Below, piece by piece: positions 5,528 to 57,016 of a stretch of DNA of 64,000 nucleotides (within the stretch, counting starts at the first letter, position 1; every line of letters starts with the position of its first letter). The DNA comes from Candidatus Binatia bacterium (lineage in GTDB: Bacteria; Desulfobacterota; Binatia; HRBIN30). Location: NCBI GenBank assembly GCA_044450645.1, contig JBIOJG010000022.1, positions 15,205-79,204 of the forward strand, written 5' to 3'. The notes beneath the pieces are model-generated. The model saw nothing but the letters and a program-made list of their open reading frames with translations, did not search any database and had not been told where the DNA came from. A program made the translations under genes and the position numbers.

Positions 5528-5572
5528 CAACTTCCAGGCCACCATCCACACAGGGCAATAGGGGGAAGACGC

Positions 5573-9736: not shown

Positions 9737-12178
9737 CTAAGAGTTGGTGCAGAACGTATTCGTCCCGGTCACGATGGCCCCCGTGTCATCGAGCCGCTGC
9801 ACGCGAACGGTGACGGGCTGCGCGCATGTGGTCCCGGGGGGCATGCGCACCACGATCTCGGCCGGCGTCACCGCTTGCACCGGGAGGTCCACCCATTGCC
9901 CCGGAGCCGCTTCGTACTGGACGCAAGTGCCGGCGATGGGATTACACACGTTGCTCTGCTGCACGGTGGCCGTGCAATCGCCGGCCGGTGGATAGCCGTC
10001 GATCGCATTGAAGCCGCTGCCCGTGATGCGCACGAGGTCTCCGGCTTTCGCCTTGCTGGGCACGAAGCTCTGGATCACAACCGCCAGAGTGTTCCCGTCC
10101 GCCCGGAACGGCTGGGGCGGGGTGACACTCACAGGCCCATTGACGTCGAGGCTGATGTTCCCGTCGCAGGTGGCCGCCGGATTCGCCGGGTCGGCGTAGC
10201 AGTGCTGCCACTGGTTGCCCAGCGCCGAAACGTTGGTTTGCGTGGTACTGGAGTTGTCGAAATTATGTCCGCCGAGAGCGGCGTTCGTGGCGTTCTGCGT
10301 AAACGCGTTGTTCCCGCCGTCAGGGCTAGCCTGGCCGAAGTCGCCGGTTGATTGGTTCGCGATCGTGGCCCCGTTACGGCCGTTGTAGACGCTGGCGGTT
10401 CCTCTGACGATGGCGGAGGCTGGGCTGGTCGTGCTGTTGAAGATGGCGATCCCGTTCTGGCCGTTCGCAGCATTGTTGGTCGCGCCGCAGGTGAAGTCGT
10501 TGGTGATTGCGGCCGTGGACAACTCCTGCACCGAGATCCCGCGCGAGCTGTTGTTGCGGAAGATGTTGCCGCTAGTCTGCAGCACCGACGGGTCGGTTGT
10601 GGTCGCGTAGGCGCCATTAGCAGCAATGCCGTTGGCGTCGGTGAACACCTGGGCCGTGGCGTTGTATCCGTTGAACTCGATGACGTTGCGATCCGCCTCG
10701 ACGTTGCCGCTCATTGTAGCCTGAATGCCACCGCCGATGTTGTGGTGCACCCAGCTGTCCTGCACGGTGAGGTGGGCCAACGTCGTGACCTTCGCACCCT
10801 TATCGGGACATGCGGTCAGCTCGGTGTTCTGAACCACATTGGCGCTGGCCCAGTCGAGGCCGGCTCCGCCGAAACCTTCGACGCAGTCGTGCGCGGCCGA
10901 CTTGGTCGTCAGACCGCTGCCGCCACCATCAACCTTGCAGTTGGCAACGACGTTCTGCTGTGTCTGGCCACTCGTTCCGTCGAAGCGGATGATATCACCC
11001 GGCGTCGCGCCATCCGCGAGCAGCGGCCGTTGGAGAAACAACCCGGCCAGACGCGCGCCCTGATTGGAGAAGATGAACGTCGCCCCGCTGCTGGGCAGGA
11101 GCACGATCCGATTGTATGGATCACCGGGGAAGGTCGGGTCGCCATTGGGGTCCGTCCCGTCGATCGTCATCTGGCTGCCGGCGATCGGTAACCGGGTCGA
11201 CTGGGCCAACTGAATCGTCGTCGGCGTGCCGGCGGGAAACACCGTCGAATCAAACTGGATCAAGAGCGGAGCGGCGGCGGTGGCGCCAGCCGACATCGCC
11301 TTCCGCAGTGTGCAGGTGCGGGTGCCAGGTGCGCTCGGGCATTGCGGCGTGGGATTCGCGGTGACGTCATCGATGCGGTCGACGCTGAGAACGGTCGAGA
11401 AGACGACCCAAGAGATGGTGTTCGGGATTCCGTTCGGATCCGCGGCGACCACGATACTCTTGGCGAACTGGTTCTGAGCCCCGACGTTGATCTGGTGCGT
11501 CCAGACGCCGGAACTGAGTCCGGATGCGGTGAAGCAGTCGGTAGTGCCCACTTCGCAGGTGGCGGTTGCGGTATAGCTGGTCGCGCCTCCCGTACACGAG
11601 GCGGTCAGCAAACTACCCGCAAGGGTGACGGCTTGGGGCACCCCGGTCGGATTATTCACACGAACCGTCAGACTCGCCCCGCTCAGCGGACACACTGGAA
11701 ACGGCGTCGCGGTGGCTGTCGGTGTGGATGTCGGTGTCGAGGTATCGGTTGGTGTCGATGTCGGCGTCGGAGTATCGGTCGGTGTCAGGGTGGCCGTCGG
11801 TGTGGCGGTGGTGGTTGGCGTACTGGTTGACGTGGCCGTGGCACTCGCGGTGGGTGTCGCTGTCGGGCTCCTGGTCGGCGTCACCGTCGGCGAGGCCGTA
11901 CTCGTGCCAGTCGACGTGCGCGTCGGAGTCGAGGTCATCGATCGTGTGGGAGTGACCGTAGGTGTCCGTGTTCTGGTCGGCGTCTTTGTGCGGGTCGGCG
12001 TTCTTGTGTTGGTCGCCGTTCTTGTGTTGGTCGGTGTTCTTGTGCTGGTCGGCGTGCGGGTGGGCGTGCGCGTTGGGGTCGCAGTGGCCGACGCCAGCGG
12101 TGGTGTCACCATCGACAGCGCGAGAACAACGGCGACGAACCCGAACCACGACGCATATGGTGGCGAAGCGGATGCCAT
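9737..12178 (-). CDS. Large secreted/anchored protein with an N-terminal signal/TM segment, a ~128-aa Thr/Pro-rich linker, a right-handed beta-helix region and a C-terminal IPT/TIG-like domain
   Basis: Hydrophobic N-terminus [24 protein letters not shown], then [19 protein letters not shown]... linker. Asn/Gly-rich parallel beta-helix-like repeats and a C-terminal [18 protein letters not shown]. Start at the internal Met (12178) with the signal-like segment. Confidence 0.6.
11698..12082 (-). repeat. Tandem degenerate ~18-nt DNA repeats encoding the Thr/Pro linker of the protein above
   Basis: Plus-strand iterations of gttcttgtgttggtcggc-type units (for example 12000-12060). Low-complexity coding repeat, not a CRISPR array. 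Confidence 0.6.
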
Positions 12179-12460
12179 CGTCGCTTGGGCACACCTAGGC
12201 GCGCCTGTCGGCCCGCAAACCTGACCGAAGAACTTGTACCGAGTTGCCGCTTTCATGTGGCGCCTTGCTGCGGAAAGCAAGGCGTGTGCCGACCGCTGAA
12301 CGTCGGCCTATGAAGCGGTGTCGCTCGGTCACCGGCTTTTGGGTGTCAGCGCGGGAGGCGGATAGCAGGAATGTTGACGTCCCATCTGAGTCCTTGCCGG
12401 GCCACCTACGATCAGGCTGCCGACACGATCCTTGACAGCCCGCGTGCCCGAGCGAAATAA

Positions 12461-14698
12461 ATGCGCATGGCTGTCGAGAGCGTTCATCGTTCGTGCCCGA
12501 TTTGCGAGGCGAGCTGCGGGATCGTCGTTGACGTCGATCGCGCGACCAACAGGATCGTAACCATCCGTGGGGATGCAGATGATCCGCGCAGCCGCGGGTA
12601 TCTGTGTCCCAAAGCCTTCGCGCCGCAGGCCGTGTACGAGGATCCCGACCGCATTCGCCGGCCGCTGCGGCGCACCGGTCAGGCCTTCGAGGAGATCGGT
12701 TGGGATGAGGCGTTCGAGTACGTCGGATCACGCTTGAAGGCAATCCGTACCGCACACGGGCCGGACGCCATCGCCACGTACATCGGCAATCCCACCGGCC
12801 ACAATTTCGGCGCCATGCTGTGGTCCGCCATGTTCATCGGGGCCCTGGGCTCGCAACGCATTTTCTCCGGCGCAACGGTGGACCAGTTTCCCAAGAACCT
12901 CACCTGCCGGATCCTCTACGGCGACGCCTGGCTCTTCCCCATCCCCGACCTCGACCGCACGGACTTCTTCCTCTGCCTCGGCGGCAACCCTCTCGTCTCA
13001 CAGGGCAGCCTGATGTCGGCGCCGAACATGGAGGCCCGCTTGCGCGCGCTGCATGCGCGCGGCGGGCGCAGCGTTGTCGTCGATCCGCGGCGCACCGAGA
13101 CAGCGGCACGCGCCAGCCGGCACCTGTTCATCAGGCCGGGAACCGACGCGTTCCTCCTCTTTGCCATGGTGCATGTGCTGTTCGAAGAAGAGCTGGTGCG
13201 TCCGGGCCGGCTGGCCGACTTTACCGACGGGATTGACGACGTCAGGAAACTCGCGCATGGCTTCCCGCCCGAAGCCGTCGCTGCGGTCACGGGCATCGAC
13301 GCCGCGACCATCCGGCAGTTGACCCGCGACTTCGCCGCCGCCGAACGCGCTGTGTGCTACGGGCGTCTGGGCACCTGCACGGTCGCATTCGGGACGCTCG
13401 CCAGCTGGCTGGTTGACGTCGTGAACCTCCTCACCGGCAACCTCGATCGTCCCGGTGGCTTCATGTTTCCGCGGCCTGCAACCGGGCAGGCTGAGCCGGT
13501 CGACCAGGACACCGGGCCGATTCCCTACGCGCGCTTTCGTTCGCGCGTGCGCGGTTTTCCGGAATTCGACGGACAGCTCCCTGTCGCCGTCATGGCCGAG
13601 GAGATCGACTCGGCCGGCGATGAACGCATTCGCGCCATGGTGACCGTCGTCGGCAACCCGGTCCTCTCCACGCCGAACGGCGAGCGCCTCTCGCGCGCGC
13701 TAGCGAGCCTCGACTTCATGGTCTCGATCGATATCTACCTCAACGAAACGACGCGGCACGCCGACCTTATCCTGCCGACGACAACCGCTTTTGAGGAAAC
13801 CAACTTCGACTTCCTGTTCCAATCCACCTCCATCCGCAACATGGTCCGTTACTCGCCGCGTGTCTTCACGCCACCGCCCGACGCGAAACCGCACTGGACC
13901 GTCATGATGGAGATCGCCGCCCGACTCAACGACACCACCGTCGACGCGTACGACGACTTCATGTTCGAGGGCATGCTGGCAGCGTTAATGGGTGCGCCTG
14001 GCACCCGCTGCCCGCGCGTGAACCCGGAGGTGGCGCGGGCCAAGCTCGGGACCAGACGCGGACCGGAACGCTTGCTCGACACACTGCTTCGTACCGGCCC
14101 GTATGGCGACGGCTTCGACGATGATGCCGAAGGCCTGTCGTTGGCGAAGATTCGCCAGGTTCCTCACGCCGTCGACCTCGGTCCGCTGCAGCCGCGGCTG
14201 CCCGACATCTTGAGAACTCCGGGGCGTCGCATCTCGCTGGTTCACGAGCTGCTGGTGCGCGACGTCGAACGGCTTCGACGCGCTCTGACGGAGCGCAGCA
14301 CGCATCAGGGCCTCCTGCTGATCGGCCGCAGACAGCTGCGCAACATGAACTCGTGGCTGCACAATGTCGAGGTGCTTGCCAAGGGGCGGAACCGCTGCAC
14401 CTTGCTGGTGCATCCGGACGACGCGCAGCGAATCGGCCTGCGCACCGGTGGGCGTGCGCGGGTACGCTCGCGCGCCGGCGAGGTGTCCACCGAGGTCGAG
14501 ATCAGTGATGAGATGATGCCCGGCGTCGTCTCCCTGCCCCACGGCTTCGGCCACACCGCGCCCGGAACGCGGCTCTCGGTCGCCACGCAGCAGCAGCCGG
14601 GGGTGAACGCCAACCAGCTTGCGGACGAGTATCTCCTCGATGAGCCTTCCGGCACCAGCGTGGTGAACGGAATACCCGTGGAGGTATTCGCGGCGTAG
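12461..14698 (+). CDS. Molybdopterin-dependent oxidoreductase (MopB superfamily, formate-dehydrogenase/BisC-like), cytoplasmic
   Basis: N-terminal Fe-S motif CPICEASCGIVVDV...GDADDPRSRGYLCPKA and MGD-binding regions. No signal peptide. Confidence 0.75.
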   Translation: MRMAVESVHRSCPICEASCGIVVDVDRATNRIVTIRGDADDPRSRGYLCPKAFAPQAVYEDPDRIRRPLRRTGQAFEEIGWDEAFEYVGSRLKAIRTAHGPDAIATYIGNPTGHNFGAMLWSAMFIGALGSQRIFSGATVDQFPKNLTCRILYGDAWLFPIPDLDRTDFFLCLGGNPLVSQGSLMSAPNMEARLRALHARGGRSVVVDPRRTETAARASRHLFIRPGTDAFLLFAMVHVLFEEELVRPGRLADFTDGIDDVRKLAHGFPPEAVAAVTGIDAATIRQLTRDFAAAERAVCYGRLGTCTVAFGTLASWLVDVVNLLTGNLDRPGGFMFPRPATGQAEPVDQDTGPIPYARFRSRVRGFPEFDGQLPVAVMAEEIDSAGDERIRAMVTVVGNPVLSTPNGERLSRALASLDFMVSIDIYLNETTRHADLILPTTTAFEETNFDFLFQSTSIRNMVRYSPRVFTPPPDAKPHWTVMMEIAARLNDTTVDAYDDFMFEGMLAALMGAPGTRCPRVNPEVARAKLGTRRGPERLLDTLLRTGPYGDGFDDDAEGLSLAKIRQVPHAVDLGPLQPRLPDILRTPGRRISLVHELLVRDVERLRRALTERSTHQGLLLIGRRQLRNMNSWLHNVEVLAKGRNRCTLLVHPDDAQRIGLRTGGRARVRSRAGEVSTEVEISDEMMPGVVSLPHGFGHTAPGTRLSVATQQQPGVNANQLADEYLLDEPSGTSVVNGIPVEVFAA

Positions 14699-32237: not shown

Positions 32238-33377
32238 ATGATCACAGTGCCGGCGATGCGGTTGCACCAGTTCGGGGTGTATTTCTATCAGGCTATCCTC
32301 AGCGTGCGTGACGTGCAGAAGCTCGTGCGCTTCGAGGTGCTGAGCTACAGCGGCGACGGTCGCACCCATGGGAAGCGGCCGCTCAAGACCCAGCGCGCCG
32401 GGAAGATCAACTGGGACGTGCTCGAGCAGAAGATCGCGCAGAGCGAGGAGGCCTTCCAGCGGCCGGTGATCCAGAAGAAGATCGCCGAGCTGATGGATTA
32501 CTACCTGCAGTGCGCCGAAGTGCAGAACCTCCCGGCCATCCCCGGTGCGGTCCTGCTCACGTGCGATCGGCGGCTCGAATTCGTACCCATTAGCTCGCAC
32601 CGCATCCTCGGCGTGTTGCAGCTGCCTCCGGACGAAGGCTCGCTGCGCGCCCTCGATGGCCAGCACCGGCTCCTCGCGCTGCACCAGCTGGCGCAAGAGC
32701 ATCCGGCCGAAGACGTGCAGGTACCGGCGGTGATCTTCGACCGGCTAGCTCCGGACCAGATCGTCGAGCTGTTCGTCACCATCAACGCCAAGCACACCAA
32801 GCTCAACCCCTCGCACCTGATCTCGCTCTCCGGCCGGCGCCTCTATCCCGATGCGGACCTGGCCATCAGCCATGACATCGTGCGCGCGCTGAGCGAGGAC
32901 AGCAATTCCCCTTTGTACCGGGAGATCAAGCTCTTCGGCGTTGGCCACGGCCGCGTCGCCCAGGCACCGCTGGCGGAAGAGTTGAAGAGCGTGATGGCGG
33001 CCCTCGACGCCTTCGGCGGCGGCAAGCAGGCCGACGACTTCCGCGAGCACGCGACCCGCCTCTTCCTCAACTACTTCAAGCAAATCGCCAAGGTGTTCCC
33101 GAAAGCGTGGAACGGTAAGCGCTACAGCATCAAGACGGCTGCCGCGTTGCGGGCGTTTCTGCGCGTGGTGCCCGACGTGCTCTCCACCATCCGGAAATCT
33201 GGCGGCGATCCGTTCGAAGCCTCGGCGATTGCCAACGTCATCGGCCTCTGGGGTGAGTACATCGGCGACGCCCGTTTCGAGACCGACGGCGAATGGCGTC
33301 AGAAGCTCGCCGGCGGCACGCGCGGCACCGTCGACGTGCTCGCCCGCGAGTTGCGTTCAGCGTTGCGGACGCCATGA
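32238..33377 (+). CDS. DGQHR domain-containing protein (DndB-like, ParB/sulfiredoxin superfamily)
   Basis: Literal DGQHR motif in RALDGQHRLLALHQLA. The context AVIFDRLAPDQIVELFVTINAKHTKLNPSHLISL resembles DndB-type proteins. Confidence 0.7.
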   Translation: MITVPAMRLHQFGVYFYQAILSVRDVQKLVRFEVLSYSGDGRTHGKRPLKTQRAGKINWDVLEQKIAQSEEAFQRPVIQKKIAELMDYYLQCAEVQNLPAIPGAVLLTCDRRLEFVPISSHRILGVLQLPPDEGSLRALDGQHRLLALHQLAQEHPAEDVQVPAVIFDRLAPDQIVELFVTINAKHTKLNPSHLISLSGRRLYPDADLAISHDIVRALSEDSNSPLYREIKLFGVGHGRVAQAPLAEELKSVMAALDAFGGGKQADDFREHATRLFLNYFKQIAKVFPKAWNGKRYSIKTAAALRAFLRVVPDVLSTIRKSGGDPFEASAIANVIGLWGEYIGDARFETDGEWRQKLAGGTRGTVDVLARELRSALRTP

Positions 33378-48593: not shown

Positions 48594-49025
48594 CTACCCG
48601 AGCGCGGCTTTGCGTTTGCTCAGCAGGTACGCCGCCCCGCTCGACACGCCAATGGCGATGCCCGAGTAGACCACGCCGAAGATCAGATATCCGACCCCCG
48701 GCGGAACGGGATTTCTCATGTTGAAGAGGATTAGGTTGATGATCACGTACCCGGCGTAGGCGTATGCCATCGGCAGCGCATAGCGCTTCATTCGCCAGAC
48801 ACCGAACGCGTAAACGAGCAGATAGATTCCGAATAGCGGTCCGACGATCGCGTTAGCCGTGCCGCTAAGCCGCTGACCGAAGAAGACGAACCCGGTGTCG
48901 CTACCTCCGAAGCGGAACGGCTTCAGCAAGTTCGAGATCGCCAAGAGTACGAACAGCACGGCAAACGTGCTGAGAACACGACCCCGCTTCGGTTCGGTTG
49001 TCACTGCCTGCACATTGGATTGCAT
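48594..49025 (-). CDS. Small integral membrane protein (4 predicted TM helices), hypothetical
   Basis: MQSNVQAVTT...FAVLFVLLAISNLL... Start at the internal ATG 49025 with a GGAGG RBS. The longer annotated ORF overlaps the upstream gene. Confidence 0.45.
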   Translation of the reverse strand: MQSNVQAVTTEPKRGRVLSTFAVLFVLLAISNLLKPFRFGGSDTGFVFFGQRLSGTANAIVGPLFGIYLLVYAFGVWRMKRYALPMAYAYAGYVIINLILFNMRNPVPPGVGYLIFGVVYSGIAIGVSSGAAYLLSKRKAALG

Positions 49026-49039
49026 CGTATCTCCTCCCC

Positions 49040-49918
49040 TCACACTGTTGGGCCACACTCTTCGACAGTTAGACGTGAGAGACAGAATCGCGCGCCGTGC
49101 AGCCAGCAGTGTGCATCGGGGGGATGTTCGTCCCGCCTCAAGCTGCGCACGGCGTCTTCGCCGCCTCGCGCGTAGGCCTGCCTGAGCAGCTCCTCGCCCT
49201 CCTCCGTGCGCGCGCCTGCACAGTGAAAGATGCCGACCGGTGATGCAAAGCGCGCGGCATACCCACGCAGATGCCGCGTGACCAGGAGCATCTGCCCCGA
49301 GCCAGCGCTCATGCCGGAGATGCCGACGGTCAGCGGTACGAGGAGGCGCCCTCCGGGTCGGAGCAGGTCGGTCCAGCACCGTTGAACCTGTGTCGCCCCG
49401 GCGTTCACAAAAATCGCGTCGAATGAATCGCCAGCCAGGCCGCTGCCATCGCCACAAGCGACTGTCACGTTTGGGTAGCCACTCAGGTTCCGGCGGGCGC
49501 GCTCTGAGAGTTCAGCGTCGATCTCTACACCGAGAACGGTACCGTCTTGAGACACCGCCTCGGCGCCGATGGCCGTGTAGTAGCCGACGCCACAGCCAAC
49601 GTGCAGCAAGCGCTCGCCCGGCGCCAGGTTGAGCATATCGAGCCACCGCGCCAGCGCCGCTGGTTCGCCGTTGTTGAGGCCTCGGGAGGCATCGAGGGCC
49701 ACGAGCACGTTGTCGTACAAGTGGCGAGGATCATCGTCCGATGTATCGCGGTAAGCCAATACGTCGGGCGGCACGAGAATCTTCCAAGGCCCAGAGCCGA
49801 CGAAGTGTTCTCGGGGCACCACTCCGAACGCGCGCACGAGCGCCGCAGACCGCAGCCCCACTGCTTGGCGCAGTCTCTCGGCAAAATCGAGCCGTGCACG
49901 TTCCAGGTCAGTTGGCAT
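49040..49918 (-). CDS. Protein-L-isoaspartate O-methyltransferase family protein with a ~80-aa C-terminal extension
   Basis: PIMT SAM-binding motif LLHVGCGVGYYTAIGAE and a post-I region. Longer than canonical Pcm (292 versus ~210 aa). Confidence 0.7.
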   Translation of the reverse strand: MPTDLERARLDFAERLRQAVGLRSAALVRAFGVVPREHFVGSGPWKILVPPDVLAYRDTSDDDPRHLYDNVLVALDASRGLNNGEPAALARWLDMLNLAPGERLLHVGCGVGYYTAIGAEAVSQDGTVLGVEIDAELSERARRNLSGYPNVTVACGDGSGLAGDSFDAIFVNAGATQVQRCWTDLLRPGGRLLVPLTVGISGMSAGSGQMLLVTRHLRGYAARFASPVGIFHCAGARTEEGEELLRQAYARGGEDAVRSLRRDEHPPDAHCWLHGARFCLSRLTVEECGPTV

Positions 49919-50051
49919 TACTGGACTCTCGCGGCTGCGGAATAACTCTTGAGAGACAGGGACGGTTGCGAAGGATTCATGACGTCGAACGGCAATGCCG
50001 GTGAGCTGCGCCGTCTCTTGAACGTCGGCTCGACCGGCAAGTTGGATTCGC

Positions 50052-50279
50052 TCACAACAGGCGCTCGAAGCCTTCGACCGTCAGCCGGGCCTGCTTCAAG
50101 ATGTGGGACAGCGTCGATCTCTTGATGGGTCGGTGCGCCGGCACCACCAGCTTGAGCGTCTCGTCTGGCGTGTGCTTCTGAAGGCGAATATGGCTGCCCC
50201 GTTGCCGCACGACAACCCACCCGTCCCGACGTAACGCCCGAACTACTTGCGGGTAGCTCAGGCTCGGGACCTTGGTCAT
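50052..50279 (-). CDS. hicA: Type II toxin-antitoxin system toxin, HicA family
   Basis: 75 aa. LRRDGWVVVRQRGSHIRL...LSHILKQARL matches the HicA (YcfA-like) pattern. Confidence 0.7.
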   Translation of the reverse strand: MTKVPSLSYPQVVRALRRDGWVVVRQRGSHIRLQKHTPDETLKLVVPAHRPIKRSTLSHILKQARLTVEGFERLL

Positions 50280-50479
50280 ATGGCGATCTCGATGACCTCC
50301 GCATCGGCCGCGATGGCTGCATCATCTTCCACGGGTTCCAAGTAGAGCTGAATTGCTTCCTGGATGTTGGCGAGCGCTTCGTCGCGCGTGTCGCCTTCGC
50401 TTATGCAGCCGGGAAGCGCGGGTACGATAGCCGTGTACCCCCCCTCGTCACTTGGCTCGAGTACGACATGCAGTTTCAT
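50276..50479 (-). CDS. hicB: Type II toxin-antitoxin system antitoxin, HicB family (UPF0150)
   Basis: 67 aa. MKLHVVLEPSDEGGYTAIVPALPGCISEGDTRDEALANIQEAIQLYLE. ATGA overlap with hicA. AGGAGGAG RBS. Confidence 0.7.
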   Translation of the reverse strand: MKLHVVLEPSDEGGYTAIVPALPGCISEGDTRDEALANIQEAIQLYLEPVEDDAAIAADAEVIEIAI

Positions 50480-50925
50480 GGGCTCCTCCTCGCTACGGCA
50501 GGATACAACCGACGGCGGCCGCGGAGCAATCTCACGAGCTTGTAGATGCGGCACCCCAGCAATCGCTGCCAAACGTATTTCGCAAAGCACGCACGTGTGA
50601 GCTTGCCGCCGCCGGCTTGGTACGGATGCGCTGCCGTTGGGCAGCCCGGAGGCTGCGGAGCACGCGGCCATCGCGTCCCACGCGAGCTTCCATGCAGGCG
50701 CCGCACACGGCACCCCGCCATGGCCCCGCGCCCAGCGGCGCAGGAAGGAGGAGTCCGAGGAAGGAACCACCGCATGGTGCCCTCCTCGGATCTGGGCCGG
50801 CGGACCGATGCGACACTCCACCATTGCGCTCGCGGCCCGCGTGTGGCGCCTCACGTGACAGCGTCCCGCATGGGATCTCCCTTAGAAGATGAAGGCAAAA
50901 TGCAAAATGAAGAGTTTAGACCATG

Positions 50926-51333
50926 TCATGGGCGCGGCATGTCGGGCAGCCAGGTGGCGGGCTGCTGCGCGAACAGAGTCTTGGCATCCCAATAGTCGCG
51001 CCACAGCATGAGCTTGCCATGGCGGAATTTGAAGACGGCAGCGACGCGCAGTGTGGCGCGCTCGCCGGTGCGGTGATGCCACACTTCAGTCCGTTCAACC
51101 AGCACCGTGTCTCCGGCTTCGACCAGTTCGTGAATCGTCGTCGGGACCTGCTCGAGCGCCCCCAGTCCGAGTTCCAACTTGGCACGAATCGCCTCGGGCC
51201 CCACCACCGTTGCTGCCGCAAAGGGCACGTCTTCGTATACGCAGTCGTCGGCGCAGTGGCTCGCGACGGCGACGAAATCCAGTCGATTCAGATCCGCAAA
51301 CAGCTGGCGCAATCGATCGGCGTTCTGACTCAT
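50926..51333 (-). CDS. NTF2-like / SnoaL-like protein (limonene-1,2-epoxide-hydrolase fold)
   Basis: ~135 aa. RLRQLFADLNRLDFVAVASHCADDCVYEDVPF... is typical of SnoaL/LEH-type cone-shaped alpha+beta proteins. Confidence 0.55.
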   Translation of the reverse strand: MSQNADRLRQLFADLNRLDFVAVASHCADDCVYEDVPFAAATVVGPEAIRAKLELGLGALEQVPTTIHELVEAGDTVLVERTEVWHHRTGERATLRVAAVFKFRHGKLMLWRDYWDAKTLFAQQPATWLPDMPRP

Positions 51334-51470
51334 ACCACCCTCCACGCAGTGCGGAATCGCTAGGGTTCCGATGCTCGCTTTGTGTGAGCCACAGAGAGCA
51401 CAGATGCAAGCGGAAGGACAGGGGGGGTGCAACGACCGCGTAGTTGTGGCAAATAAGAGGGCACTCGCCC

Positions 51471-52226
51471 ATGGACCACGTGACGATCGAGCGCGACGGA
51501 GCCGTCGCGGTGTTCCGCTTCAACCGCCCGCCGGCTAACGCGTTCGATCTGGAGTTCGCCCGCGAGATCGAAGCCGCCTTCACCGCGCTGGTTCCGACAA
51601 GTGGTGTAGGGGCGATCGTGGTAACGGGGAGCGGGAGCTGTTTCTCCGCCGGCCTCGACCTAAAGCGCGTCCCAACGTATGGCGCGGAACAACAGCGCGA
51701 TATGGTCGCAACGATCAATCGTATGCTGGCCGCGCTCTACGCCTGTCCGCTGCCGGTCGTCGGGGCGATCAACGGCCACGCCATTGCGGGCGGTCTCGTG
51801 CTCGCCCTCGCCTGTGACTACCGCGTCGGCACGAGCGCCCCCTGTAAGCTGGGCTTGACGGAAGGTCGGGCGGGCATTCCCTTCCCGGCGGTGGCGATGG
51901 CCGTGGTGCAGGCGGAGACGGCGCCGGCGGTCGCACGGATGCTGACGCTGCGCGCCAACAACATGGGTCCCGAAGCGGCGCTGGCGTGCGCTCTGCTCGA
52001 CGAGCTGCAATCGCCCGAGCGCGTCATGCCCACCGCTATCGACGTGGCCCGCGATCTGGCGAGCATCCCGCGGGACGCCTACGCAACGATCAAACGCCAG
52101 CTGCGGGCGAAAGCGATAGCGTTCATCGAAAGCACGGTCGCGCAGGGAACCGATCCGGCGCTCGAGTCGTGGCTCACGTCAGACGCCAGTGCTGCGTCCG
52201 CGGCGTTGCTGCGCCGTCGCGGCTAA
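51471..52226 (+). CDS. Enoyl-CoA hydratase/isomerase (crotonase) family protein
   Basis: VTIERDGAVAVFRFNRPPANAF...CFSAGLDLK...INGHAIAGGLVLALACDYRV. Confidence 0.8.
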   Translation: MDHVTIERDGAVAVFRFNRPPANAFDLEFAREIEAAFTALVPTSGVGAIVVTGSGSCFSAGLDLKRVPTYGAEQQRDMVATINRMLAALYACPLPVVGAINGHAIAGGLVLALACDYRVGTSAPCKLGLTEGRAGIPFPAVAMAVVQAETAPAVARMLTLRANNMGPEAALACALLDELQSPERVMPTAIDVARDLASIPRDAYATIKRQLRAKAIAFIESTVAQGTDPALESWLTSDASAASAALLRRRG

Positions 52227-52347
52227 TGACGGTTGGGCGACAGCATGGTGATGGTCCTATCGGATTCTCGGTCCCTTGAAACAACTGTCGGTCCGATCCT
52301 GGTCGACGTAAATCTTGCGGCGGTATCGTGAACTACGCCGTCCCAAC

Positions 52348-54096
52348 CTACTCCGGTAGCCCGGCTTTGCGCAGGGCTTCGAGGTGGTGGGCGAGATCTG
52401 TCTCGCGTCGGTAGTGCAGCAGCGGCAGGCAATGCTCGCGGATGGCGAACCCGGGGATGCGTTTGATCACCTCCGTCGCGTGCACGGTCGCTTGCTCGGC
52501 ATCGCCCAGCTGTGCGTGGCAGGCCGCGAGCAGCGCGTGGTGCAACCCGTCCGGCGCGGTGATGTGTCTCAGAGACTCGACCGCATCGGCGTAACGCTGC
52601 GCGACGAACTGGGCACGCGCCAGGTGGAACCAGAAACGCTCGGGGTGGTAGGGATTGAGGCGCATCGCCTTGCGGATCCATTCGATGCCCTCCTCCCCTT
52701 GGCCGAGCCAGGTGAGGATCTCGCCTTGTTGGACCACGATCAGGTCGTCGTTCGGGTTCAGCGCCAGTGCGCGCTGCTGGTGGTAGACGGCCTTGTCGAA
52801 ATCGTTGCGCACCACCCCCACGGCCGCAAGAATACGGTGCACGTCGCTGTCGTTCTCGTCCAGCCCGAGCGCGACCTGCAGCTCGCGCTCGAACTCCGAT
52901 TCGATCGCCGCGCGATCGGCGCACCAGCCATAGGTCCACTGCTGGCCGAGAATGCACGCGTGCCACGCATGCGCGTGAGCGTACCGCGGGTCCAGTTCGA
53001 CCGCGCGCCGGATGAGACTCAGCGCCCGCAGGTTGTCGTCGCGGTTCGAGCGGTGGTGCAGGACCTTGGCTTCCAGCACGCATTCATAGGCGACCATGTT
53101 CGCTGGCGGCTTGCGCTCGGTGCGGCTGCGCGCGGCGGCCTCCATGCGCCCGGGAAGCGTGGCGACGATTGCCGAAGTCACCTCGTCCTGGATCGCGAAG
53201 ATGTCCTCCAGATCCCGGTCGTAGCGCTCGGCCCAGACGTGGTGGTCGGATTCCGCGTCGATCAGCTGCACCGTGACACGCACCCGGTTGCCGGCCTTGC
53301 GCACCCTGCCCTCGACGACGTATTGAACGCCAAGTTCGCGCGCGACCTTTTTCATATCCACGGCCTGTCCCTTGAACTTGAACGAGGTGTTGCGCGAAAT
53401 CACGAACAGCTCGCGGAAGCGCGACAGGTCGGTCAGGATGTCCTCGGTCAGGCCGTCGGCGAAGTACTCCTGCTCCGGCGCGCCGCTCATGTTGGCAAAG
53501 GGCAGCACGAGGATGGAGGGTTTCGCGGAGCCCGGCGAAGGGGCGGGGCCGGCGGCCGTGCCGGCGCCATCGGTGCGGACCCGGTACACCCTGACGCGCG
53601 CCGCGATGTTCTTCAATTCGTGCTCTCCCAGGTCCTCGAAGGCGAGTTCGAGCTTGCGGCACACTTCCTCATGCACCTTTCCCGACACGCAGATGCCGCC
53701 TGCCGGCGCGAGCGATTCGACGCGCGCCGCAATGTTCACGCCGTCGCCGTAGATCCGGTTGTCCTCGGTGATGATGTCGCCGAGATTGACGCCGACGCGG
53801 AACGCCATGCGGCGCGCTTCGGACAGCTGCGCGTTGCGCGCAGCCAGTTCGCGCTGCATGGCGAGCGCCGCCTCGACCGCATCGATCGCACTGCCGAACT
53901 CGGCGAGGAGGTTGTCGCCCGGCATGTCCACGATGCGTCCGTGGTGGGCAGCCACGATTTCGGAGATCGCGGCGCGGTAATCGGACAAGGTGCGGATGGT
54001 CGCAAGCTCGTTGTCGCCCATCAGCCGGCTGTAGCCCGCGACATCGGCGCTCAGAATCGCCGCCAGCCGGCGCTGTACGCGAACGTTCTCACTCAT
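52348..54096 (-). CDS. Class III adenylate/guanylate cyclase fused to C-terminal TPR repeats
   Basis: CHD domain (RRLAAILSADVAGYSRLMGDNE...GDGVNIAARVESLA) followed by TPR-like helical repeats. Confidence 0.8.
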   Translation of the reverse strand: MSENVRVQRRLAAILSADVAGYSRLMGDNELATIRTLSDYRAAISEIVAAHHGRIVDMPGDNLLAEFGSAIDAVEAALAMQRELAARNAQLSEARRMAFRVGVNLGDIITEDNRIYGDGVNIAARVESLAPAGGICVSGKVHEEVCRKLELAFEDLGEHELKNIAARVRVYRVRTDGAGTAAGPAPSPGSAKPSILVLPFANMSGAPEQEYFADGLTEDILTDLSRFRELFVISRNTSFKFKGQAVDMKKVARELGVQYVVEGRVRKAGNRVRVTVQLIDAESDHHVWAERYDRDLEDIFAIQDEVTSAIVATLPGRMEAAARSRTERKPPANMVAYECVLEAKVLHHRSNRDDNLRALSLIRRAVELDPRYAHAHAWHACILGQQWTYGWCADRAAIESEFERELQVALGLDENDSDVHRILAAVGVVRNDFDKAVYHQQRALALNPNDDLIVVQQGEILTWLGQGEEGIEWIRKAMRLNPYHPERFWFHLARAQFVAQRYADAVESLRHITAPDGLHHALLAACHAQLGDAEQATVHATEVIKRIPGFAIREHCLPLLHYRRETDLAHHLEALRKAGLPE

Positions 54097-54150
54097 TTTC
54101 GATCTCTGAACACAGAGGAATCTAGGCCGCCGTTCCGGCTCGCCACTTTC

Positions 54151-54963
54151 TCAAAGCGCGACAGTAACGCGTAAGAAGGTTGCCGGAATGGAGGTGGCAT
54201 CCTTGCTTGGGCTCTTGTTTTGGCTGTCGAACAACCCTTCCAGCTCCTTCGCCAGATCAGCTGCTCGACCGTTTTTTTCTGCCGCTTCGAATGCATTCAT
54301 GGTTGGCCCGTAGTATTTTCTGAATGCATCCACGAGCGCTGACGGTGCGCCGGGATAGTTGAAGGTATACGTGTCTCTGGCGAAGGATAGCTTCTCTGCT
54401 GGAACTCCCGCGGCTGCAAATCGCTCTGTCACGTTGTTCTCGATCCCCCACGTCATCGGGCTGATGAAGCCTTCCGGCGGTGGCGGCGTGTATGAGGAGC
54501 TGATCTTCAAAATCTGCGCCACCAACGTCGGATCATTTGGAATCCAGTTCCCCATAATGATCCGACCTCCGGGCCGGGTCACGCGCACCTTCTCCTTGGC
54601 CACATCAAACGGCTTTGGCGCGAACATGGCGCCAAAGATGCTCACGACGAGGTCAAACGTCTGATCTTTCAGCTCGTGCAAATTGGACGCATCGCCTTCC
54701 TGAAACTTGCAGTTCGTGAGGCCCTGCTCCTTTGCGCGCCTGTTCCCAGCCTCAACGAGGTTCGTCGCGATATCGACGCCCAACACGTCCGCTCCGAGTC
54801 TCGCCGCTGGTAATGCCGTCGTGCCATCGCCGCATCCGAGATCCAAGACCTTGAGCCCTTTTGTGATTCCGAGTCGCTTGACGAGCGCCCCTCCGCTCTC
54901 TCTCATGCTCTCCGCAATGCGAGTAAAGTCGCCCTTTTCCCAAAGTGCTTTGTTTGGATTCAT
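54151..54963 (-). CDS. Class I SAM-dependent methyltransferase
   Basis: Motif I VLDLGCGDGTTALPAA and a post-I acidic residue. Codon usage is noticeably AT-richer than the flanks. Confidence 0.75.
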   Translation of the reverse strand: MNPNKALWEKGDFTRIAESMRESGGALVKRLGITKGLKVLDLGCGDGTTALPAARLGADVLGVDIATNLVEAGNRRAKEQGLTNCKFQEGDASNLHELKDQTFDLVVSIFGAMFAPKPFDVAKEKVRVTRPGGRIIMGNWIPNDPTLVAQILKISSSYTPPPPEGFISPMTWGIENNVTERFAAAGVPAEKLSFARDTYTFNYPGAPSALVDAFRKYYGPTMNAFEAAEKNGRAADLAKELEGLFDSQNKSPSKDATSIPATFLRVTVAL

Positions 54964-55205
54964 TGGAATATTCCCGCTCCTTCAGTGGATAGACCCTACC
55001 AACGGGGTAATGGACGTAAGGTCTACGCTCAGGGCGTTTCCCGCATCCCCGCTGCCTTGCCTCAAAATTCAATTGGTCCCGTCTACTATACGGGGCAGAC
55101 AAACGGAGTTCAACCGCCCCTGGGATGGGGTAGTGGGTCAGCTTGATTCTACCTGGTATTCGGTAGTGTCTCTGTTTGAAAATTTAGACGCTCTGACGGG
55201 AGATG

Positions 55206-55631
55206 TCAGGGTATAGGCGTCGGAAAACAGGTGCCCGGCGGAAGTGCAGGACAGCAACGGTTGTTCGTGCACGCGAACCCCGTTTCGCAGTCTGCCTGGG
55301 AACTACAAGGGGCGGCCACACATGAATCGATACACGCAGTACACTGCCCTGTTGCTGGACTAAAATTGTCAGCCGCACACCAAGCGAATGCACCAGGAGG
55401 ATCTGTGGTTGTGGCGAGATGGCAACAGTCATGCCGCGTTGTAGTAGGAATCGGTGTCGCTGGATTGCACGATGATCCGCCGAAATAGAGGCAGACGCCT
55501 TGTGCACTTGGTGTTGATGTCGATTGCGGCCCCTGGGCTGTACTGGAGTCGGGACCGCAGCCAATGAGGCAGACGATCAGGCAACCGATGGTTGCAACTG
55601 TTCTCAGCCTCGCGTGCGGCAGGGCGCACAT
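55206..55631 (-). CDS. Cysteine-rich (16 Cys) predicted lipoprotein, hypothetical
   Basis: Lipobox-like TIGCLIVCLIGC, then Thr/Pro/Ser-rich segments. Paired Cys patterns CC, CxxC and CxxxC recur (DCCHLATT, CTACIDSCVAAPC, CTNNRCCP). Confidence 0.4.
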   Translation of the reverse strand: MCALPHARLRTVATIGCLIVCLIGCGPDSSTAQGPQSTSTPSAQGVCLYFGGSSCNPATPIPTTTRHDCCHLATTTDPPGAFAWCAADNFSPATGQCTACIDSCVAAPCSSQADCETGFACTNNRCCPALPPGTCFPTPIP

Positions 55632-55791
55632 GCCCGGTACTTTCTCACAGAAACGAGTAGATTGCGAATTCGCGCTAACGGATCTGGCCGCTACGGATCA
55701 CTCGCAATATGAACTGGCGCCCGCCATTCTACCCGCTCGTTGCCCGCCAGCGTTCGTGATATGAGCCGACGGAACGATTGGAGGAGGTTTT

Positions 55792-56130
55792 ATGGACAGC
55801 AATCGGCGACGATTCTTGGCGCTCGCACTGGGCGGCGCAGTATTGTGGACGCTCGGGCAGGCGGGAGCGGCGGATACGGCTCCGGCGACTCCGGCCGGCG
55901 ACGTCGTACATCTGACCCTCGGCGTCGAGGGGATGCATTGACCCACGGCTTGCCCAGTGCGTGCGCGCACTGCGCTTGAATCCGTACCGGGCGTACGGAA
56001 AGCCGAGGTCGATTTCAATAAGAAGGAAGCCTACGTCACGGCGGATAAACAGTCGGTCGATATTCCGGCCATGCTCAAGGCGCTGGAGAAGGTGCAGTAC
56101 ACGGGTTCGGTGAAGAGCGGGCCGAACTGA
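55792..56130 (+). CDS. TAT-secreted HMA/MerP-like metal-binding protein interrupted by an in-frame TGA at 55939-55941 (selenoprotein candidate or pseudogene)
   Basis: GGAGGAGG RBS. Twin-arginine signal MDSNRRRFLALALGG. Read-through gives ...LGVEGMH-U-PTACPVRARTALESVPGVRKAEVDF..., colinear with MerP (GMTCxxCPxTVKKAL). A hairpin CAGTGCG-tgcg-CGCACTG lies 13 nt after the TGA. Confidence 0.4.
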
Positions 56131-56206
56131 TGTCGTGAATCGTGTTCGGGAATCGTGCTCGGGAAGAACAACTTCCGAGCACAACTCACGATTCACGAAC
56201 ACGACG
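56131..56206 (+). promoter_or_regulatory. Long imperfect palindrome (GTGCTCGGGAAG-aacaa-CTTCCGAGCAC core flanked by TCGTGAATCGTG / CACGATTCACGA) between the HMA gene and the crotonase gene
   Basis: Seen directly. The 16-mer TCGTGAATCG(T)GTTCG recurs downstream of the crotonase gene at 57032-57047. Confidence 0.45.
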
Positions 56207-56215
56207 AGGATTCTC

Positions 56216-57016
56216 ATGAGCAAAGTCCTTACACAACGGAACGATCACATCTGGATCATCACCATCAATCGCCCGGAGCAGATGAACTGCGTCGATGGCG
56301 AGACGGCGGCATTGCTCGAAAACGCGTGGAAGACGTTTCGCGATGACGACGAGCTGTACGTCGCCATCCTGACCGGCGCGGGTGACGCCTCATTCTGCGC
56401 TGGAGCGGATCTGAAAAACCTGCCGTCGCTGGGACCCGGACCTGGCTCCTCGCGGCATGCGCGCCGCCGCTTCGTCACCAGCGGACCAGGCTACATGGGC
56501 TACTCGCGTCAAACCGACATCTTCAAGCCCATCCTGTGCGCCGTGAACGGCTACGCCTTCGCCGGCGGCCTCGAACTGTCCTGCCTCGGCGACATGCGCA
56601 TCGCCAGCGAGAACGCCGAGTTCTGGGTGGCGTGCCGGCGCTGGAATGTGCCGCTCGTCGACGGCGGTACGCAGCGCCTGCCACGCATCATCGGCCTGGG
56701 CTGGGCAATGGAGTTGATCGTGCTCGGTAAACGCATCGATGCGCGCGAGGCACACCGCATCGGGCTGGCGAACGAAGTCGTGCCGCGCGGCCAAGCGCTG
56801 GCCCGCTCGCTCGAGCTGGCACAGCAAATCTGCGCCTATCCGCAAGGCGCCATTCGCACCGACAAGGAATCCGCGCTACGCGGCTTCGGCCGCCCCCTTG
56901 AAGAAGGGCTGCGCATCGAATGCGAGGTCGGCCAAACGGTGATCGGCAGCCACGACACGTTCGAGGGCCCGGCGGCGTTCGCCGCGAGACGCCCGGCGAA
57001 GTTCAAACAGGATTGA
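56216..57016 (+). CDS. Enoyl-CoA hydratase/isomerase (crotonase) family protein
   Basis: IWIITINRPEQMNCVDGETAALL...FCAGADLK...VNGYAFAGGLELSCLGDMRIA. Start at the internal Met (MSKVLTQ). Confidence 0.8.
   Translation: MSKVLTQRNDHIWIITINRPEQMNCVDGETAALLENAWKTFRDDDELYVAILTGAGDASFCAGADLKNLPSLGPGPGSSRHARRRFVTSGPGYMGYSRQTDIFKPILCAVNGYAFAGGLELSCLGDMRIASENAEFWVACRRWNVPLVDGGTQRLPRIIGLGWAMELIVLGKRIDAREAHRIGLANEVVPRGQALARSLELAQQICAYPQGAIRTDKESALRGFGRPLEEGLRIECEVGQTVIGSHDTFEGPAAFAARRPAKFKQD

What the first reader, a model, noticed from the sequence alone, without database searches (positions are those of the whole stretch)
55792..56130. MerP/HMA-like periplasmic metal-binding gene with an in-frame UGA at the metal-ligand position and a SECIS-placed hairpin
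The ORF has a twin-arginine signal and an HMA fold. Its remainder aligns colinearly with MerP/CopZ (PVRARTALESVPGVRKAEVDF... versus PITVKKALSKVEGVSKVDV...). The only disruption is a TGA exactly where the first Cys of GMTCxxC sits, which gives GMH-U-PTAC. A Cys-to-Sec change (TGC to TGA) is a single substitution. A 7-bp/4-nt hairpin starts 13 nt downstream, which is where bacterial SECIS elements lie. The alternative is a nonsense pseudogene: the motif spacing is UxxxC rather than CxxC, and a CAHC quartet ending in TGA is visible in another frame of the same DNA. Either outcome is informative.
Basis: partly seen in the sequence, partly recalled or inferred. Interest (0 to 1): 0.6.

Follow-up and report, generated by a model that had tools for sequence, protein, structure and literature searches.

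The report
Exported MerP-like metal-binding selenoprotein gene
The "broken" small metal-binding gene is very probably intact: its internal TGA almost certainly encodes selenocysteine, it belongs to a family that public databases hold only as split fragments, and it is a new subtype of a known class of selenium-containing metal-binding proteins.

Summary
ORF 55792-56130 (+) encodes a twin-arginine signal and an HMA domain, with an in-frame TGA at 55939-55941 (GMH-U-PTAC-P). A 7-bp/4-nt hairpin starts 13 nt downstream.

The TGA is neither damage nor a sequencing error.
- Nineteen distinct high-GC relatives (about 50-93% identical, from Candidatus Binatia MAGs and metagenomes) all carry TGA at this codon.
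- The second ligand codon is TGC/TGT in 14 of them and TGA in 5 (UPxxU).
- A full-length all-Cys homologue (GMTCPSSC, Tat signal) exists.
- A low-GC marine clade also carries TGA..TGA.
- Downstream of the TGA, dN/dS is 0.07-0.42 in the same frame.
- TGA is the normal stop of 34 of 44 window genes, and of this gene.

Two downstream hairpins are conserved. The first shows compensatory changes. The second (55981-55999) is nearly invariant and holds two rare GTA codons; the Cys homologue lacks it.

The protein is closest to MerP (PDB 1AFI, E=2.4e-10) but has a one-residue-longer ligand loop. It falls below the NCBIfam cut-offs for MerP and for the known UxxU HMA selenoprotein. No mer or cop genes lie nearby.

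Verdict: a real selenoprotein gene and a new variant of a known kind. Sec machinery and function were not tested.

The parts
55780..55787 (+). Shine-Dalgarno-like GGAGGAGG, 4 nt before the ATG
   Evidence: Read directly from the sequence.
55792..56130 (+). Complete selenoprotein gene: 112 codons plus stop, with one in-frame UGA read as Sec
   Evidence: Translation. Full-length colinear homologues in 19 high-GC loci. dN/dS 0.07-0.42 downstream of the TGA.
55792..55869 (+). Twin-arginine (Tat-type) signal peptide: NRRRFLAL, then a hydrophobic stretch, then an AGA|A cleavage site placed by eye
   Evidence: RR followed by x-[FLVM]-[LV] is invariant in all high-GC family members and in the Cys homologue P0035. 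The cleavage site is inferred and no predictor was run.
55918..56100 (+). HMA (heavy-metal-associated) ferredoxin-like domain
   Evidence: Pfam PF00403, residues 43-103, E=6.9e-9. MerP structure 1AFI aligned over 68 residues, E=2.4e-10.
55939..55941 (+). UGA read as selenocysteine; first ligand of the GMH-U-P-x-x-C loop
   Evidence: TGA in 19 of 19 high-GC homologues and in the marine locus L065. Cys at this position in P0035, P0119 and P0183.
55951..55953 (+). TGC, the second ligand Cys; a Sec/Cys-variable position across the family
   Evidence: TGC/TGT in 14 sequences and TGA in 5 (L001, L047, L048, L049, L073).
55955..55972 (+). Hairpin 1 (CAGUGCG/UGCG/CGCACUG), 13 nt after the UGA, with its loop 20 nt after the UGA; candidate SECIS for this UGA
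   Evidence: MFE fold. RNAalifold. 89.9% of cells paired across 17 sequences. Compensatory changes at two pairs (AU/GC/CG and UA/CG). G at loop position 2 is invariant.
55981..55999 (+). Hairpin 2 (UCCGUAC/CGGGC/GUACGGA), extended at its base by GCU/AGC at 55974-55976 and 56001-56003; nearly invariant
   Evidence: 100% paired in 17 sequences; the only stem change is A to G, which keeps a G-U pair. Third-position entropy is 0 at five of its seven codons and 0-0.75 overall. It holds two GTA codons, although GTA is only 6.5% of Val codons in window genes. It is absent from the Cys-only homologue's gene, L066.
56128..56130 (+). True stop codon (TGA), not recoded
   Evidence: Homologues end at the same place.

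Best explanation
Window 55792-56130 is an intact gene of a Candidatus Binatia-type bacterium. It encodes a small, Tat-exported, MerP-like HMA-domain selenoprotein.

Proposed mechanism. When the ribosome reaches UGA 55939-55941, SelB carrying Sec-tRNA(Sec) is recruited by mRNA structure just downstream and inserts selenocysteine. The structures are hairpin 1 at +13 nt and the invariant hairpin 2 at +39 nt. Translation then continues to the real TGA stop at 56128. The mature protein of about 86 residues carries a selenolate/thiolate pair in a loop one residue longer than the canonical CxxC (GMH-U-P-T-A-C-P). The most likely function is high-affinity binding of a soft metal ion such as Hg(II) or Cu(I) in the periplasm.

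Shown here:
- the gene is under purifying selection across the UGA;
- the UGA is conserved;
- Sec and Cys exchange at both ligand positions within the family;
- both hairpins are conserved;
- the domain is HMA.

Inferred, not shown:
- SelB/SECIS dependence, and which hairpin is the SECIS;
- export through Tat;
- metal binding, and which metal.
For: 1. TGA conservation. Nineteen distinct high-GC relatives, from independent assemblies (two MAGs and many metagenomes), have TGA at this codon. This excludes a sequencing error or a private nonsense mutation.
2. Sec/Cys exchange at ligand 2. The codon is TGC/TGT in 14 sequences and TGA in 5.
3. Sec/Cys exchange at ligand 1. The full-length homologue P0035 has GMTCPSSC with the same loop length and an RR signal (42% identity). 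P0119 and P0183 are also CxxxC.
4. Coding selection past the TGA. dN/dS is 0.07-0.42 and differences concentrate at third positions (for example 4/2/17) in the frame of the N-terminal part. Identity to the Binatia MAG orthologue (79%) is in line with the flanking genes (about 77-88%).
5. No code reassignment. TGA terminates 34 of 44 Pfam-supported window genes and this gene itself.
6. RNA structure. Hairpin 1 has compensatory substitutions at two pairs, and hairpin 2 is 100% paired. Synonymous sites in hairpin 2 are frozen, including two rare GTA codons. The Cys-only gene L066 uses GTG and lacks hairpin 2.
7. A separate marine low-GC clade has TGA-P-x-x-TGA/TGC with its own 7-bp hairpin.
8. 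Fold and function class. Pfam HMA. Best NCBIfam hits are MerP and the UxxU metal-binding selenoprotein. The best solved structure is MerP.
9. Precedent. HMA-type selenoproteins are already catalogued: NF041115 (UxxU) and a cation ATPase (UxxC) (PMC13188914, PMC9312934).
Against: - No selA, selB, selD or tRNA-Sec lies in the 64-kb window or in any fetched locus. The rest of the genome could not be searched.
- No other selenoprotein gene was found in the window or in related loci.
- No literature on Sec use in Binatia was found.
- Hairpin 1 is imperfect in several members: L044, L047, L048 and L072 have 1-2 mismatches.
- The loop of hairpin 2 lies 46 nt from the first UGA. From my recollection of the bSECISearch model, the usual range is 16-37 nt, so this is outside it.
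- The single-sequence fold is only marginally better than shuffles (z=-2.09).
- No mer, cop or other metal-resistance gene is a conserved neighbour, so the metal-binding role rests on domain homology alone.
- The full domain could not be modelled, because the tool rejects the internal stop.
Confidence: 0.85

Rival explanations
1. Nonsense pseudogene or assembly/sequencing error. The TGA truncates a former MerP/CopZ-like gene and the downstream part is dead DNA.
For: Gene callers in every public source split the gene at the TGA. No Sec machinery is seen in the window.
Against: TGA occurs at the same codon in 19 independent high-GC sequences and in a marine clade. dN/dS downstream is 0.07-0.42 with third-position-biased change. 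There are no frameshifts or further stops. Divergence is similar to that of the neighbouring housekeeping genes.
Confidence: 0.02
2. Two separate small genes: a 49-residue secreted peptide ending at the TGA, and a 57-residue HMA fragment re-initiated at GTG 55957, as databases annotate them.
For: A GTG or ATG often follows the loop, and callers predict 56-62-aa 'CopZ' proteins.
Against: The split would cut strand beta-1 and the GM-x-ligand motif away from the rest of the beta-alpha-beta-beta-alpha-beta fold. It would also leave the C-terminal piece with no signal peptide and only one ligand. The two parts are always in the same frame with a fixed 4-codon linker, P-x-x-[C/U]. Homologues with Cys are single full-length proteins (P0035, P0183). 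There is no Shine-Dalgarno sequence before 55957.
Confidence: 0.03
3. The UGA is read through, but not as Sec. It could be read by near-cognate tRNA (Trp or Cys), or under a locally altered code, with the hairpins acting only as read-through stimulators.
For: Some pipelines translated the marine homologues with TGA=Trp (P0136 and others). Sec machinery is unverified.
Against: TGA is the commonest true stop in the window, including in this gene. The TGA positions are exactly the two metal-ligand Cys positions, and within the family they exchange only with Cys codons. That pattern is the signature of Sec. Trp at both ligand positions would destroy the site.
Confidence: 0.05
4. It is a genuine selenoprotein, but its role is redox (a periplasmic selenylsulfide/thiol oxidoreductase or selenium/sulfur carrier) rather than metal binding. 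This rival concerns function only.
For: Most known bacterial selenoproteins are redox proteins with UxxC/CxxU (PMC9312934, PMC13188914). No metal-resistance genes are conserved next to it. The loop is longer than the metal-binding CxxC. Neighbours in some loci are redox-related: OsmC in L047 and a [NiFe]-hydrogenase cluster in L068.
Against: The whole domain matches HMA/MerP end to end, including the C-terminal Y-x-x-S-V-K region. The nearest catalogued selenoprotein families with this fold are annotated as metal-binding. The more distant UxxU relative L052 sits beside MerC-like and HMA genes.
Confidence: 0.3

Closest known systems
MerP, periplasmic Hg(II)-binding protein of mer operons (TIGR02052; PDB 1AFI, 1OSD)
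   Same: Both are small exported single-HMA-domain proteins. MerP is the best-scoring NCBIfam model (57.5 bits) and the best solved structure (E=2.4e-10, aligned over 68 residues). Both have two ligands at the start of helix 1, each followed by Pro, and a similar C-terminal Y-x-x-S-V-K.
   Different: The score is below the MerP equivalog cut-off (92.55). The first ligand is Sec. The loop is one residue longer (U-P-x-x-C against C-x-x-C). The signal is a Tat (RR) signal. No merT, merA or merR gene lies nearby. From my own recollection, MerP uses a Sec-type signal; this was not checked here.
NF041115 'UxxU_metal_bind' metal-binding (seleno)protein, first listed as 'putative mercuric reductase, UxxU' from the Olavius algarvensis delta-1 symbiont
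   Same: It is an HMA-domain selenoprotein with Sec at the metal-ligand positions. Some members of the present family also have two Sec residues. It is the second-best NCBIfam hit.
   Different: Scores of 52-61 bits fall below the 95-bit cut-off. Ligand spacing is UxxxC/UxxxU rather than UxxU. The present family has an N-terminal Tat signal. The metagenomic relative L052 (GMT-U-PG-U) is closer to that model (68.8 bits) but is also below the cut-off.
Other Sec-containing heavy-metal proteins: cation-transporting P-type ATPase (UxxC in its HMA domain), MerT-type transporter selenoproteins, and the MerT/CopZ fusion selenoprotein NF045683
   Same: Sec replaces a metal-ligand Cys. NF045683 aligns to the HMA part at 45 bits.
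   Different: Those are membrane transporters or fusions. The NF045683 cut-off of 375 bits is far from met. The present protein is a free, soluble, exported domain.
GOS 'mercuric transport protein MerP' selenoprotein (Zhang and Gladyshev 2008, PMC2398784)
   Same: Only the name is shared: a MerP-like selenoprotein predicted from metagenomes.
   Different: The deposited sequences are a 33-residue fragment with a 'TUC' motif (HHARTSAPAGTUCQSG...). They show no similarity to the GM[HT]-U-P-x-x-[C/U]-P family.

Membership tests
Bacterial selenoprotein (SelB/SECIS-dependent UGA recoding) | In-frame UGA conserved among orthologues, with coding conservation continuing downstream in the same frame | tested here: met
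   TGA in 19 of 19 high-GC homologues and in a marine clade. dN/dS 0.07-0.42 after the TGA.
Bacterial selenoprotein (SelB/SECIS-dependent UGA recoding) | Homologues with Cys aligned to the UGA position (Sec/Cys pair) | tested here: met
   Ligand 1: Cys in P0035, P0119 and P0183. Ligand 2: 14 Cys against 5 TGA within the family, plus P0155 in the marine clade.
Bacterial selenoprotein (SelB/SECIS-dependent UGA recoding) | Stem-loop (bSECIS) in the coding region shortly after the UGA, with a G in the apical loop | tested here: met
   Hairpin 1 starts 13 nt after the UGA, its loop lies 20 nt after it, loop position 2 is an invariant G, and two pairs show compensatory changes. Hairpin 2 is invariant. 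SelB binding itself is not testable here. Rfam has no matching model.
Bacterial selenoprotein (SelB/SECIS-dependent UGA recoding) | Genome encodes selA, selB, selD and tRNA-Sec (selC) | not testable with these tools
   None lies in the 64-kb window or in the fetched loci.
Bacterial selenoprotein (SelB/SECIS-dependent UGA recoding) | UGA is otherwise a stop codon in the organism (no code reassignment) | tested here: met
   34 of 44 window genes, and this gene itself, end in TGA.
HMA domain (Pfam PF00403) | Score above the Pfam gathering threshold over the full domain | tested here: met
   36.4 bits against 24.8; profile positions 2-61 of 62, scored with U written as C.
HMA domain (Pfam PF00403) | Canonical GMxCxxC ligand motif | tested here: not met
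   The motif is GMH-U-P-T-A-C, with three residues between the ligands. HMMER needs a one-residue gap in MerP to align it. The same spacing occurs in all family members.
MerP (TIGR02052 equivalog) | Score at or above the curated cut-off of 92.55 bits | tested here: not met
   57.5 bits for the window protein and 63-68 bits for other members.
MerP (TIGR02052 equivalog) | Encoded in a mer operon with merT, merA and merR | tested here: not met
   Neighbours are a methyltransferase, an enoyl-CoA hydratase, an SBP-chorismate mutase, a Mur ligase and similar genes. No mer gene was found in the window or in seven other contexts.
MerP (TIGR02052 equivalog) | Exported to the periplasm by an N-terminal signal peptide | tested here: inconclusive
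   A signal-like N-terminus is present, but it is of the twin-arginine type (RRxFL, invariant RR). No signal-peptide predictor was available.
NF041115 UxxU metal-binding (seleno)protein | Score at or above the curated cut-off of 95 bits | tested here: not met
   52.8 bits for the window protein and 52-61 bits for other members.
NF041115 UxxU metal-binding (seleno)protein | UxxU motif with two residues between the Sec residues | tested here: not met
   The family has UxxxC (14 sequences) or UxxxU (5 sequences).

The most novel reading that the evidence does not exclude
This is an unrecognised selenoprotein family (GM[HT]-U-P-x-x-[C/U]-P). Its one-residue-expanded selenolate/thiolate loop would give a coordination chemistry or metal specificity different from CxxC HMA proteins. 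It would be exported already folded through Tat. Its recoding would use a two-hairpin module that the standard bacterial SECIS model does not describe. In that module, either the invariant distal hairpin, 46 nt from the first UGA, acts as the SelB site with hairpin 1 as a spacer, or each UGA of the UPxxU forms has its own SECIS.
Probability: 0.25. Interest if true: 0.65.

Novelty: new variant of a known kind. Interest (0 to 1): 0.55.

Why it matters
1. Annotation. Every public copy found is split into a 47-49-aa 'hypothetical' piece and a 56-62-aa 'CopZ' or 'mercuric ion binding' piece, or is translated with Trp in the marine clade. One curated model would repair dozens of records. No report of Sec use in Candidatus Binatia turned up in the literature searches.

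2. Chemistry. A periplasmic Sec/Cys, or Sec/Sec, chelating loop with non-canonical spacing is a natural experiment in soft-metal (Hg, Cu, Cd, Ag) affinity and in the redox stability of metal sites outside the cytoplasm.

3. Recoding. Family members with two UGAs four codons apart, followed by two separately conserved hairpins, offer a compact system. It could be used to ask how bacterial SECIS spacing rules cope with closely spaced Sec codons.

Tried and rejected
- Word-indexed protein search with the read-through protein returned only one hit, the C-terminal fragment P0001. That hit opened the trail.
I searched with the C-terminal 62 residues instead. No 3-D model was made.
- Rfam scan of 55600-56400: no family matched.
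- tRNA scan of the window and 14 loci: no tRNA at all, hence no tRNA-Sec.
- Pfam annotation of essentially all credible window ORFs: no SelA, SelB or SelD. The molybdopterin oxidoreductase at 12461-14698 is uninterrupted.
- Two scans for further in-frame TGAs with coding signal on both sides, in the window and in 11 related loci. These found only adjacent genes that share a frame. The best-looking case, L003:13011, is an ABC-F gene followed by a small ORF. These scans are insensitive: the target gene itself ranks low.
- Exact look-up of a window protein to identify the source record: not on record.
- Literature on Sec in Binatia or Binatota: nothing relevant. Searches for 'UxxxC' and 'UxxxU': nothing relevant.
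- The GOS 'MerP selenoprotein' is an unrelated fragment.
- The alternative-frame 'CAHC-TGA' idea is rejected. It is too far from GM, and substitution patterns support the main frame.
- An alternative register for hairpin 1 (alignment columns 24-30 with 38-44) pairs less well (82% of cells) and shows no compensatory change.

Full report
**Observation**

The region reads as the first-stage reader described.
- An ATG at 55792 follows GGAGGAGG (55780-55787).
- It opens a 112-codon frame: MDSNRRRFLALALGGAVLWTLGQAGAADTAPATPAGDVVHLTLGVEGMH*PTACPVRARTALESVPGVRKAEVDFNKKEAYVTADKQSVDIPAMLKALEKVQYTGSVKSGPN*.
- The internal stop is TGA at 55939-55941. The terminal stop is also TGA, at 56128-56130.
- With the internal TGA written as Cys, the protein passes the Pfam HMA threshold (PF00403, E=6.9e-9, 36.4 bits against 24.8).
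- The hairpin CAGUGCG/UGCG/CGCACUG lies at 55955-55972, 13 nt after the TGA. A second hairpin, UCCGUAC/CGGGC/GUACGGA, lies at 55981-55999.
- In the single sequence this fold is only marginally better than shuffles (z=-2.09). The case therefore rests on comparison with relatives.

**Relatives all keep the TGA**

The 5.8-billion-protein search returned one hit, a 62-residue C-terminal fragment (P0001). Its metagenomic contig reads MDTTRRKFLAL...LTLDVQGMH*PSS*PVRVRTALESVPGVRKAEVDF. The first TGA is conserved, and a second TGA sits where the window has Cys.

Scans of genome and metagenome collections added 12 more close relatives, 54-87% identical. Contig look-ups for further fragments added more. 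The count is now 19 distinct high-GC sequences.
- All 19 have TGA at the first ligand codon.
- The second ligand codon is TGC/TGT in 14 and TGA in 5 (L001, L047, L048, L049, L073).
- One relative, L002, is from a Candidatus Binatia MAG. It is syntenic with window 55.8-62.8 kb at about 77-88% amino-acid identity. The window is therefore from a Binatia-type chromosome.

**The gene is translated across the TGA**
- In the 58 codons after the TGA, pairwise dN/dS against the window is 0.07-0.42. Differences pile up at third codon positions, for example 4/2/17 for L041.
- The N-terminal part, the four-codon linker P-x-x-[C/U] and the C-terminal part are always in one frame, with no indels.
- TGA is an ordinary stop in this organism. 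It ends 34 of 44 Pfam-supported window genes, and this gene itself.
- These points exclude a pseudogene, a sequencing error and a reassigned code. They also make a split into two small genes implausible.

**Sec/Cys exchange at both ligand positions**

An exhaustive HMMER search with the C-terminal 62 residues and a profile search gave three results.
- Public databases hold the family almost only as fragments: 47-49-aa N-terminal and 56-62-aa C-terminal pieces. They are named 'copper chaperone CopZ', 'mercuric ion binding protein' or 'hypothetical protein [Deltaproteobacteria bacterium]'. No source annotates a selenoprotein.
- Full-length Cys forms with the same expanded loop exist. P0035 has a Tat-type RR signal and GMTCPSSC, and is 42% identical to the window protein. 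P0119 has GMSCEIGC and P0183 has GMTCAVNC.
- A low-GC marine clade was translated by some pipelines as GMTWPxxWP, and as GMTWPSSCP in P0155. The DNA of one member (L065, a Tara scaffold) shows TGA-CCT-TCC-TCT-TGA and a TAA stop. This is a second lineage with UPxxU/UPxxC, with a Sec-type rather than a Tat signal.

Exchange of TGA only with Cys codons, at exactly the two metal-ligand positions, is the classical signature of selenocysteine.

**RNA structure**

I made an ungapped 17-sequence alignment of the 78 nt around the TGA.

| Feature | Hairpin 1 (55955-55972) | Hairpin 2 (55981-55999) |
|---|---|---|
| Cells paired | 89.9% | 100% |
| Variation | Compensatory changes at two pairs: A-U/G-C/C-G and U-A/C-G | Only A to G, which keeps a G-U pair |
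| Loop | Position 2 is an invariant G | CGGGC, CGGGU or CGUGC; position 2 is an invariant G |

Sliding the partner columns by one to three positions drops pairing to 11-61%. An alternative register for hairpin 1 is worse.

Synonymous sites within hairpin 2 are frozen. Third-position entropy is 0 at five of its seven codons, against about 1 elsewhere. Both Val codons there are GTA, which makes up only 6.5% of Val codons in window genes. The all-Cys homologue's gene (L066) encodes the same E-V-P-G-V-R with GTG codons and has no such hairpin.

The loop of hairpin 1 lies 20 nt from the first UGA. The loop of hairpin 2 lies 46 nt from the first UGA and 34 nt from the second-ligand codon. From my recollection of the published bacterial SECIS model, the allowed range is 16-37 nt from UGA to loop, with a G early in the loop. 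On that basis hairpin 1 fits the first UGA, and hairpin 2 fits the second UGA of the UPxxU forms. However, hairpin 2 is equally invariant in the UPxxC forms, so it probably also matters for the first UGA. The tools here cannot decide which hairpin binds SelB. The marine member has a different 7-bp hairpin, 28 nt after its first UGA and 16 nt after its second.

**What the protein resembles**
- The best NCBIfam models are MerP (TIGR02052, 57.5 bits, cut-off 92.55), the UxxU metal-binding selenoprotein NF041115 (52.8 bits, cut-off 95) and the MerT/CopZ fusion selenoprotein NF045683 (45 bits, cut-off 375). None reaches its cut-off, and the same holds for three other family members.
- The best solved structure is MerP 1AFI (E=2.4e-10). 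It aligns over the whole domain with a single one-residue gap in MerP between the two ligands: GMHCPTACPV against GMTC-AACPI.
- The twin-arginine motif (RR, then x, then F/L/V/M, then L/V) is invariant in the high-GC clade.

**Genomic context**
- The window neighbours are a class-I methyltransferase, an unassigned Cys-rich lipoprotein, an enoyl-CoA hydratase, an SBP-chorismate mutase fusion, a Mur ligase, a metallo-beta-lactamase-fold protein and a 2-hydroxyacid dehydrogenase.
- Other members sit next to different housekeeping genes.
- No mer or cop gene is a conserved partner.
- Only the distant relative L052 (43% identical, GMT-U-PG-U with canonical spacing) lies beside MerC-like, HMA and CMD genes.
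- The metal-binding role is therefore inferred from the domain, not from context. A redox role remains a serious alternative for the function.

**Comparison with what is known**

HMA-type selenoproteins are already catalogued.
- 'Putative mercuric reductase / metal-binding protein, UxxU' (NF041115) and 'cation-transporting ATPase, UxxC' come from the Olavius symbiont study.
- MerT-type selenoproteins are also listed (PMC13188914, PMC9312934, bioRxiv 10.1101/2022.07.06.499078).
- The GOS 'MerP' selenoprotein is an unrelated 33-residue fragment.
- No paper in the held library mentions a UxxxC or UxxxU motif, or Sec in Binatia.
- By the field's own convention, the same domain with a different Sec motif counts as a different subfamily (PMC9312934). 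On that convention this is a new subfamily of a known kind.

**Not established**
- Sec-insertion genes and tRNA-Sec are absent from the window and the fetched loci. They could not be sought in the rest of the genome.
- No additional selenoprotein gene was detected nearby.
- No structure model could be made, because the tool rejects the internal stop.

**Verdict**

The gene is a Tat-signal, MerP-like HMA selenoprotein with an expanded U-P-x-x-C ligand loop and a conserved two-hairpin recoding region. It is systematically mis-annotated as fragments. I rate it a new variant of a known kind, with moderate interest (0.55).

Noticed in passing
window 56131-56215: The 85-nt spacer between the selenoprotein gene and the enoyl-CoA hydratase gene folds into a long nested hairpin: outer arms TCGTGAATCGTG/CACGATTCACGA and inner arms GTGCTCGGGAAG/CTTCCGAGCAC. 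MFE is -38.3 kcal/mol with z=-4.3, and no shuffle folds as well. The same sequence (translating as 'IVFVNRARN') follows the gene in L002 and L040-L043. It has no T-tract and no Rfam match. It could be a terminator, an attenuator or a repeat element.
   Followed up: partly
L052:5001-5213 and neighbours at 3510-6010: A more distant metagenomic HMA gene has two in-frame TGAs with canonical spacing (GMT-U-PG-U) and an RR signal. It lies next to a MerC-like gene, another HMA protein and a CMD/AhpD-like gene. It scores 68.8 bits on NF041115, below the 95-bit cut-off.
   Followed up: partly
L065:389-679 (Tara scaffold); proteins P0136, P0152, P0154, P0155, P0158, P0159, P0182: Marine low-GC homologues are stored in public protein sets with Trp at the two TGA positions (GMTWPxxWP). 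The gene callers apparently used a TGA=Trp code. The DNA shows TGA..TGA and a TAA stop. These are probably mis-translated selenoproteins.
   Followed up: partly
window about 49000-55700: This stretch is missing between the flanking genes in L040, L041 and L045. In those loci the homologue of window 48.6-49.0 kb lies directly upstream of the selenoprotein gene. In the window it holds a HicB-like antitoxin, a SnoaL-like protein, an enoyl-CoA hydratase, an adenylate cyclase-TPR protein, a methyltransferase and a Cys-rich lipoprotein. It is probably a lineage-specific insertion.
   Followed up: no
window 55206-55631 (-): A divergently oriented 141-aa ORF has a lipoprotein-like N-terminus (…LIVCLIGCGP) and about 18 cysteines. 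It has no Pfam match. It is not conserved next to the selenoprotein gene in other loci.
   Followed up: no
window 9737-12280 (-): An 847-aa ORF has no Pfam hit and unusual codon-position composition: GC1 is 0.54 and GC2 is 0.61, which is higher than GC1, unlike all other genes in the window.
   Followed up: no
window 6318-7526 (-) and 32238-33377 (+): A PriCT-1 primase-C-terminal-domain protein and a DndB-like (DNA sulfur-modification-associated) protein are present. They hint at mobile or defence-related islets in an otherwise housekeeping region.
   Followed up: no
L068:5845-6180 with 6353-10915 (also L069, L070): In one lineage the selenoprotein gene (GMH-U-PVGC) lies between dnaB and a five-gene cluster for a soluble [NiFe]-hydrogenase: Fe-S protein, NAD-binding protein, small subunit, large subunit and HycI protease. 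It is unknown whether this adjacency is functional.
   Followed up: no
L073:8650-9090: Upstream of another family member lies a gene with Host_attach and baeRF_family12 (bacterial eRF1-like) domains. It is noted only because release-factor-like proteins next to a recoded gene could be more than coincidence. It appears in one lineage only.
   Followed up: no
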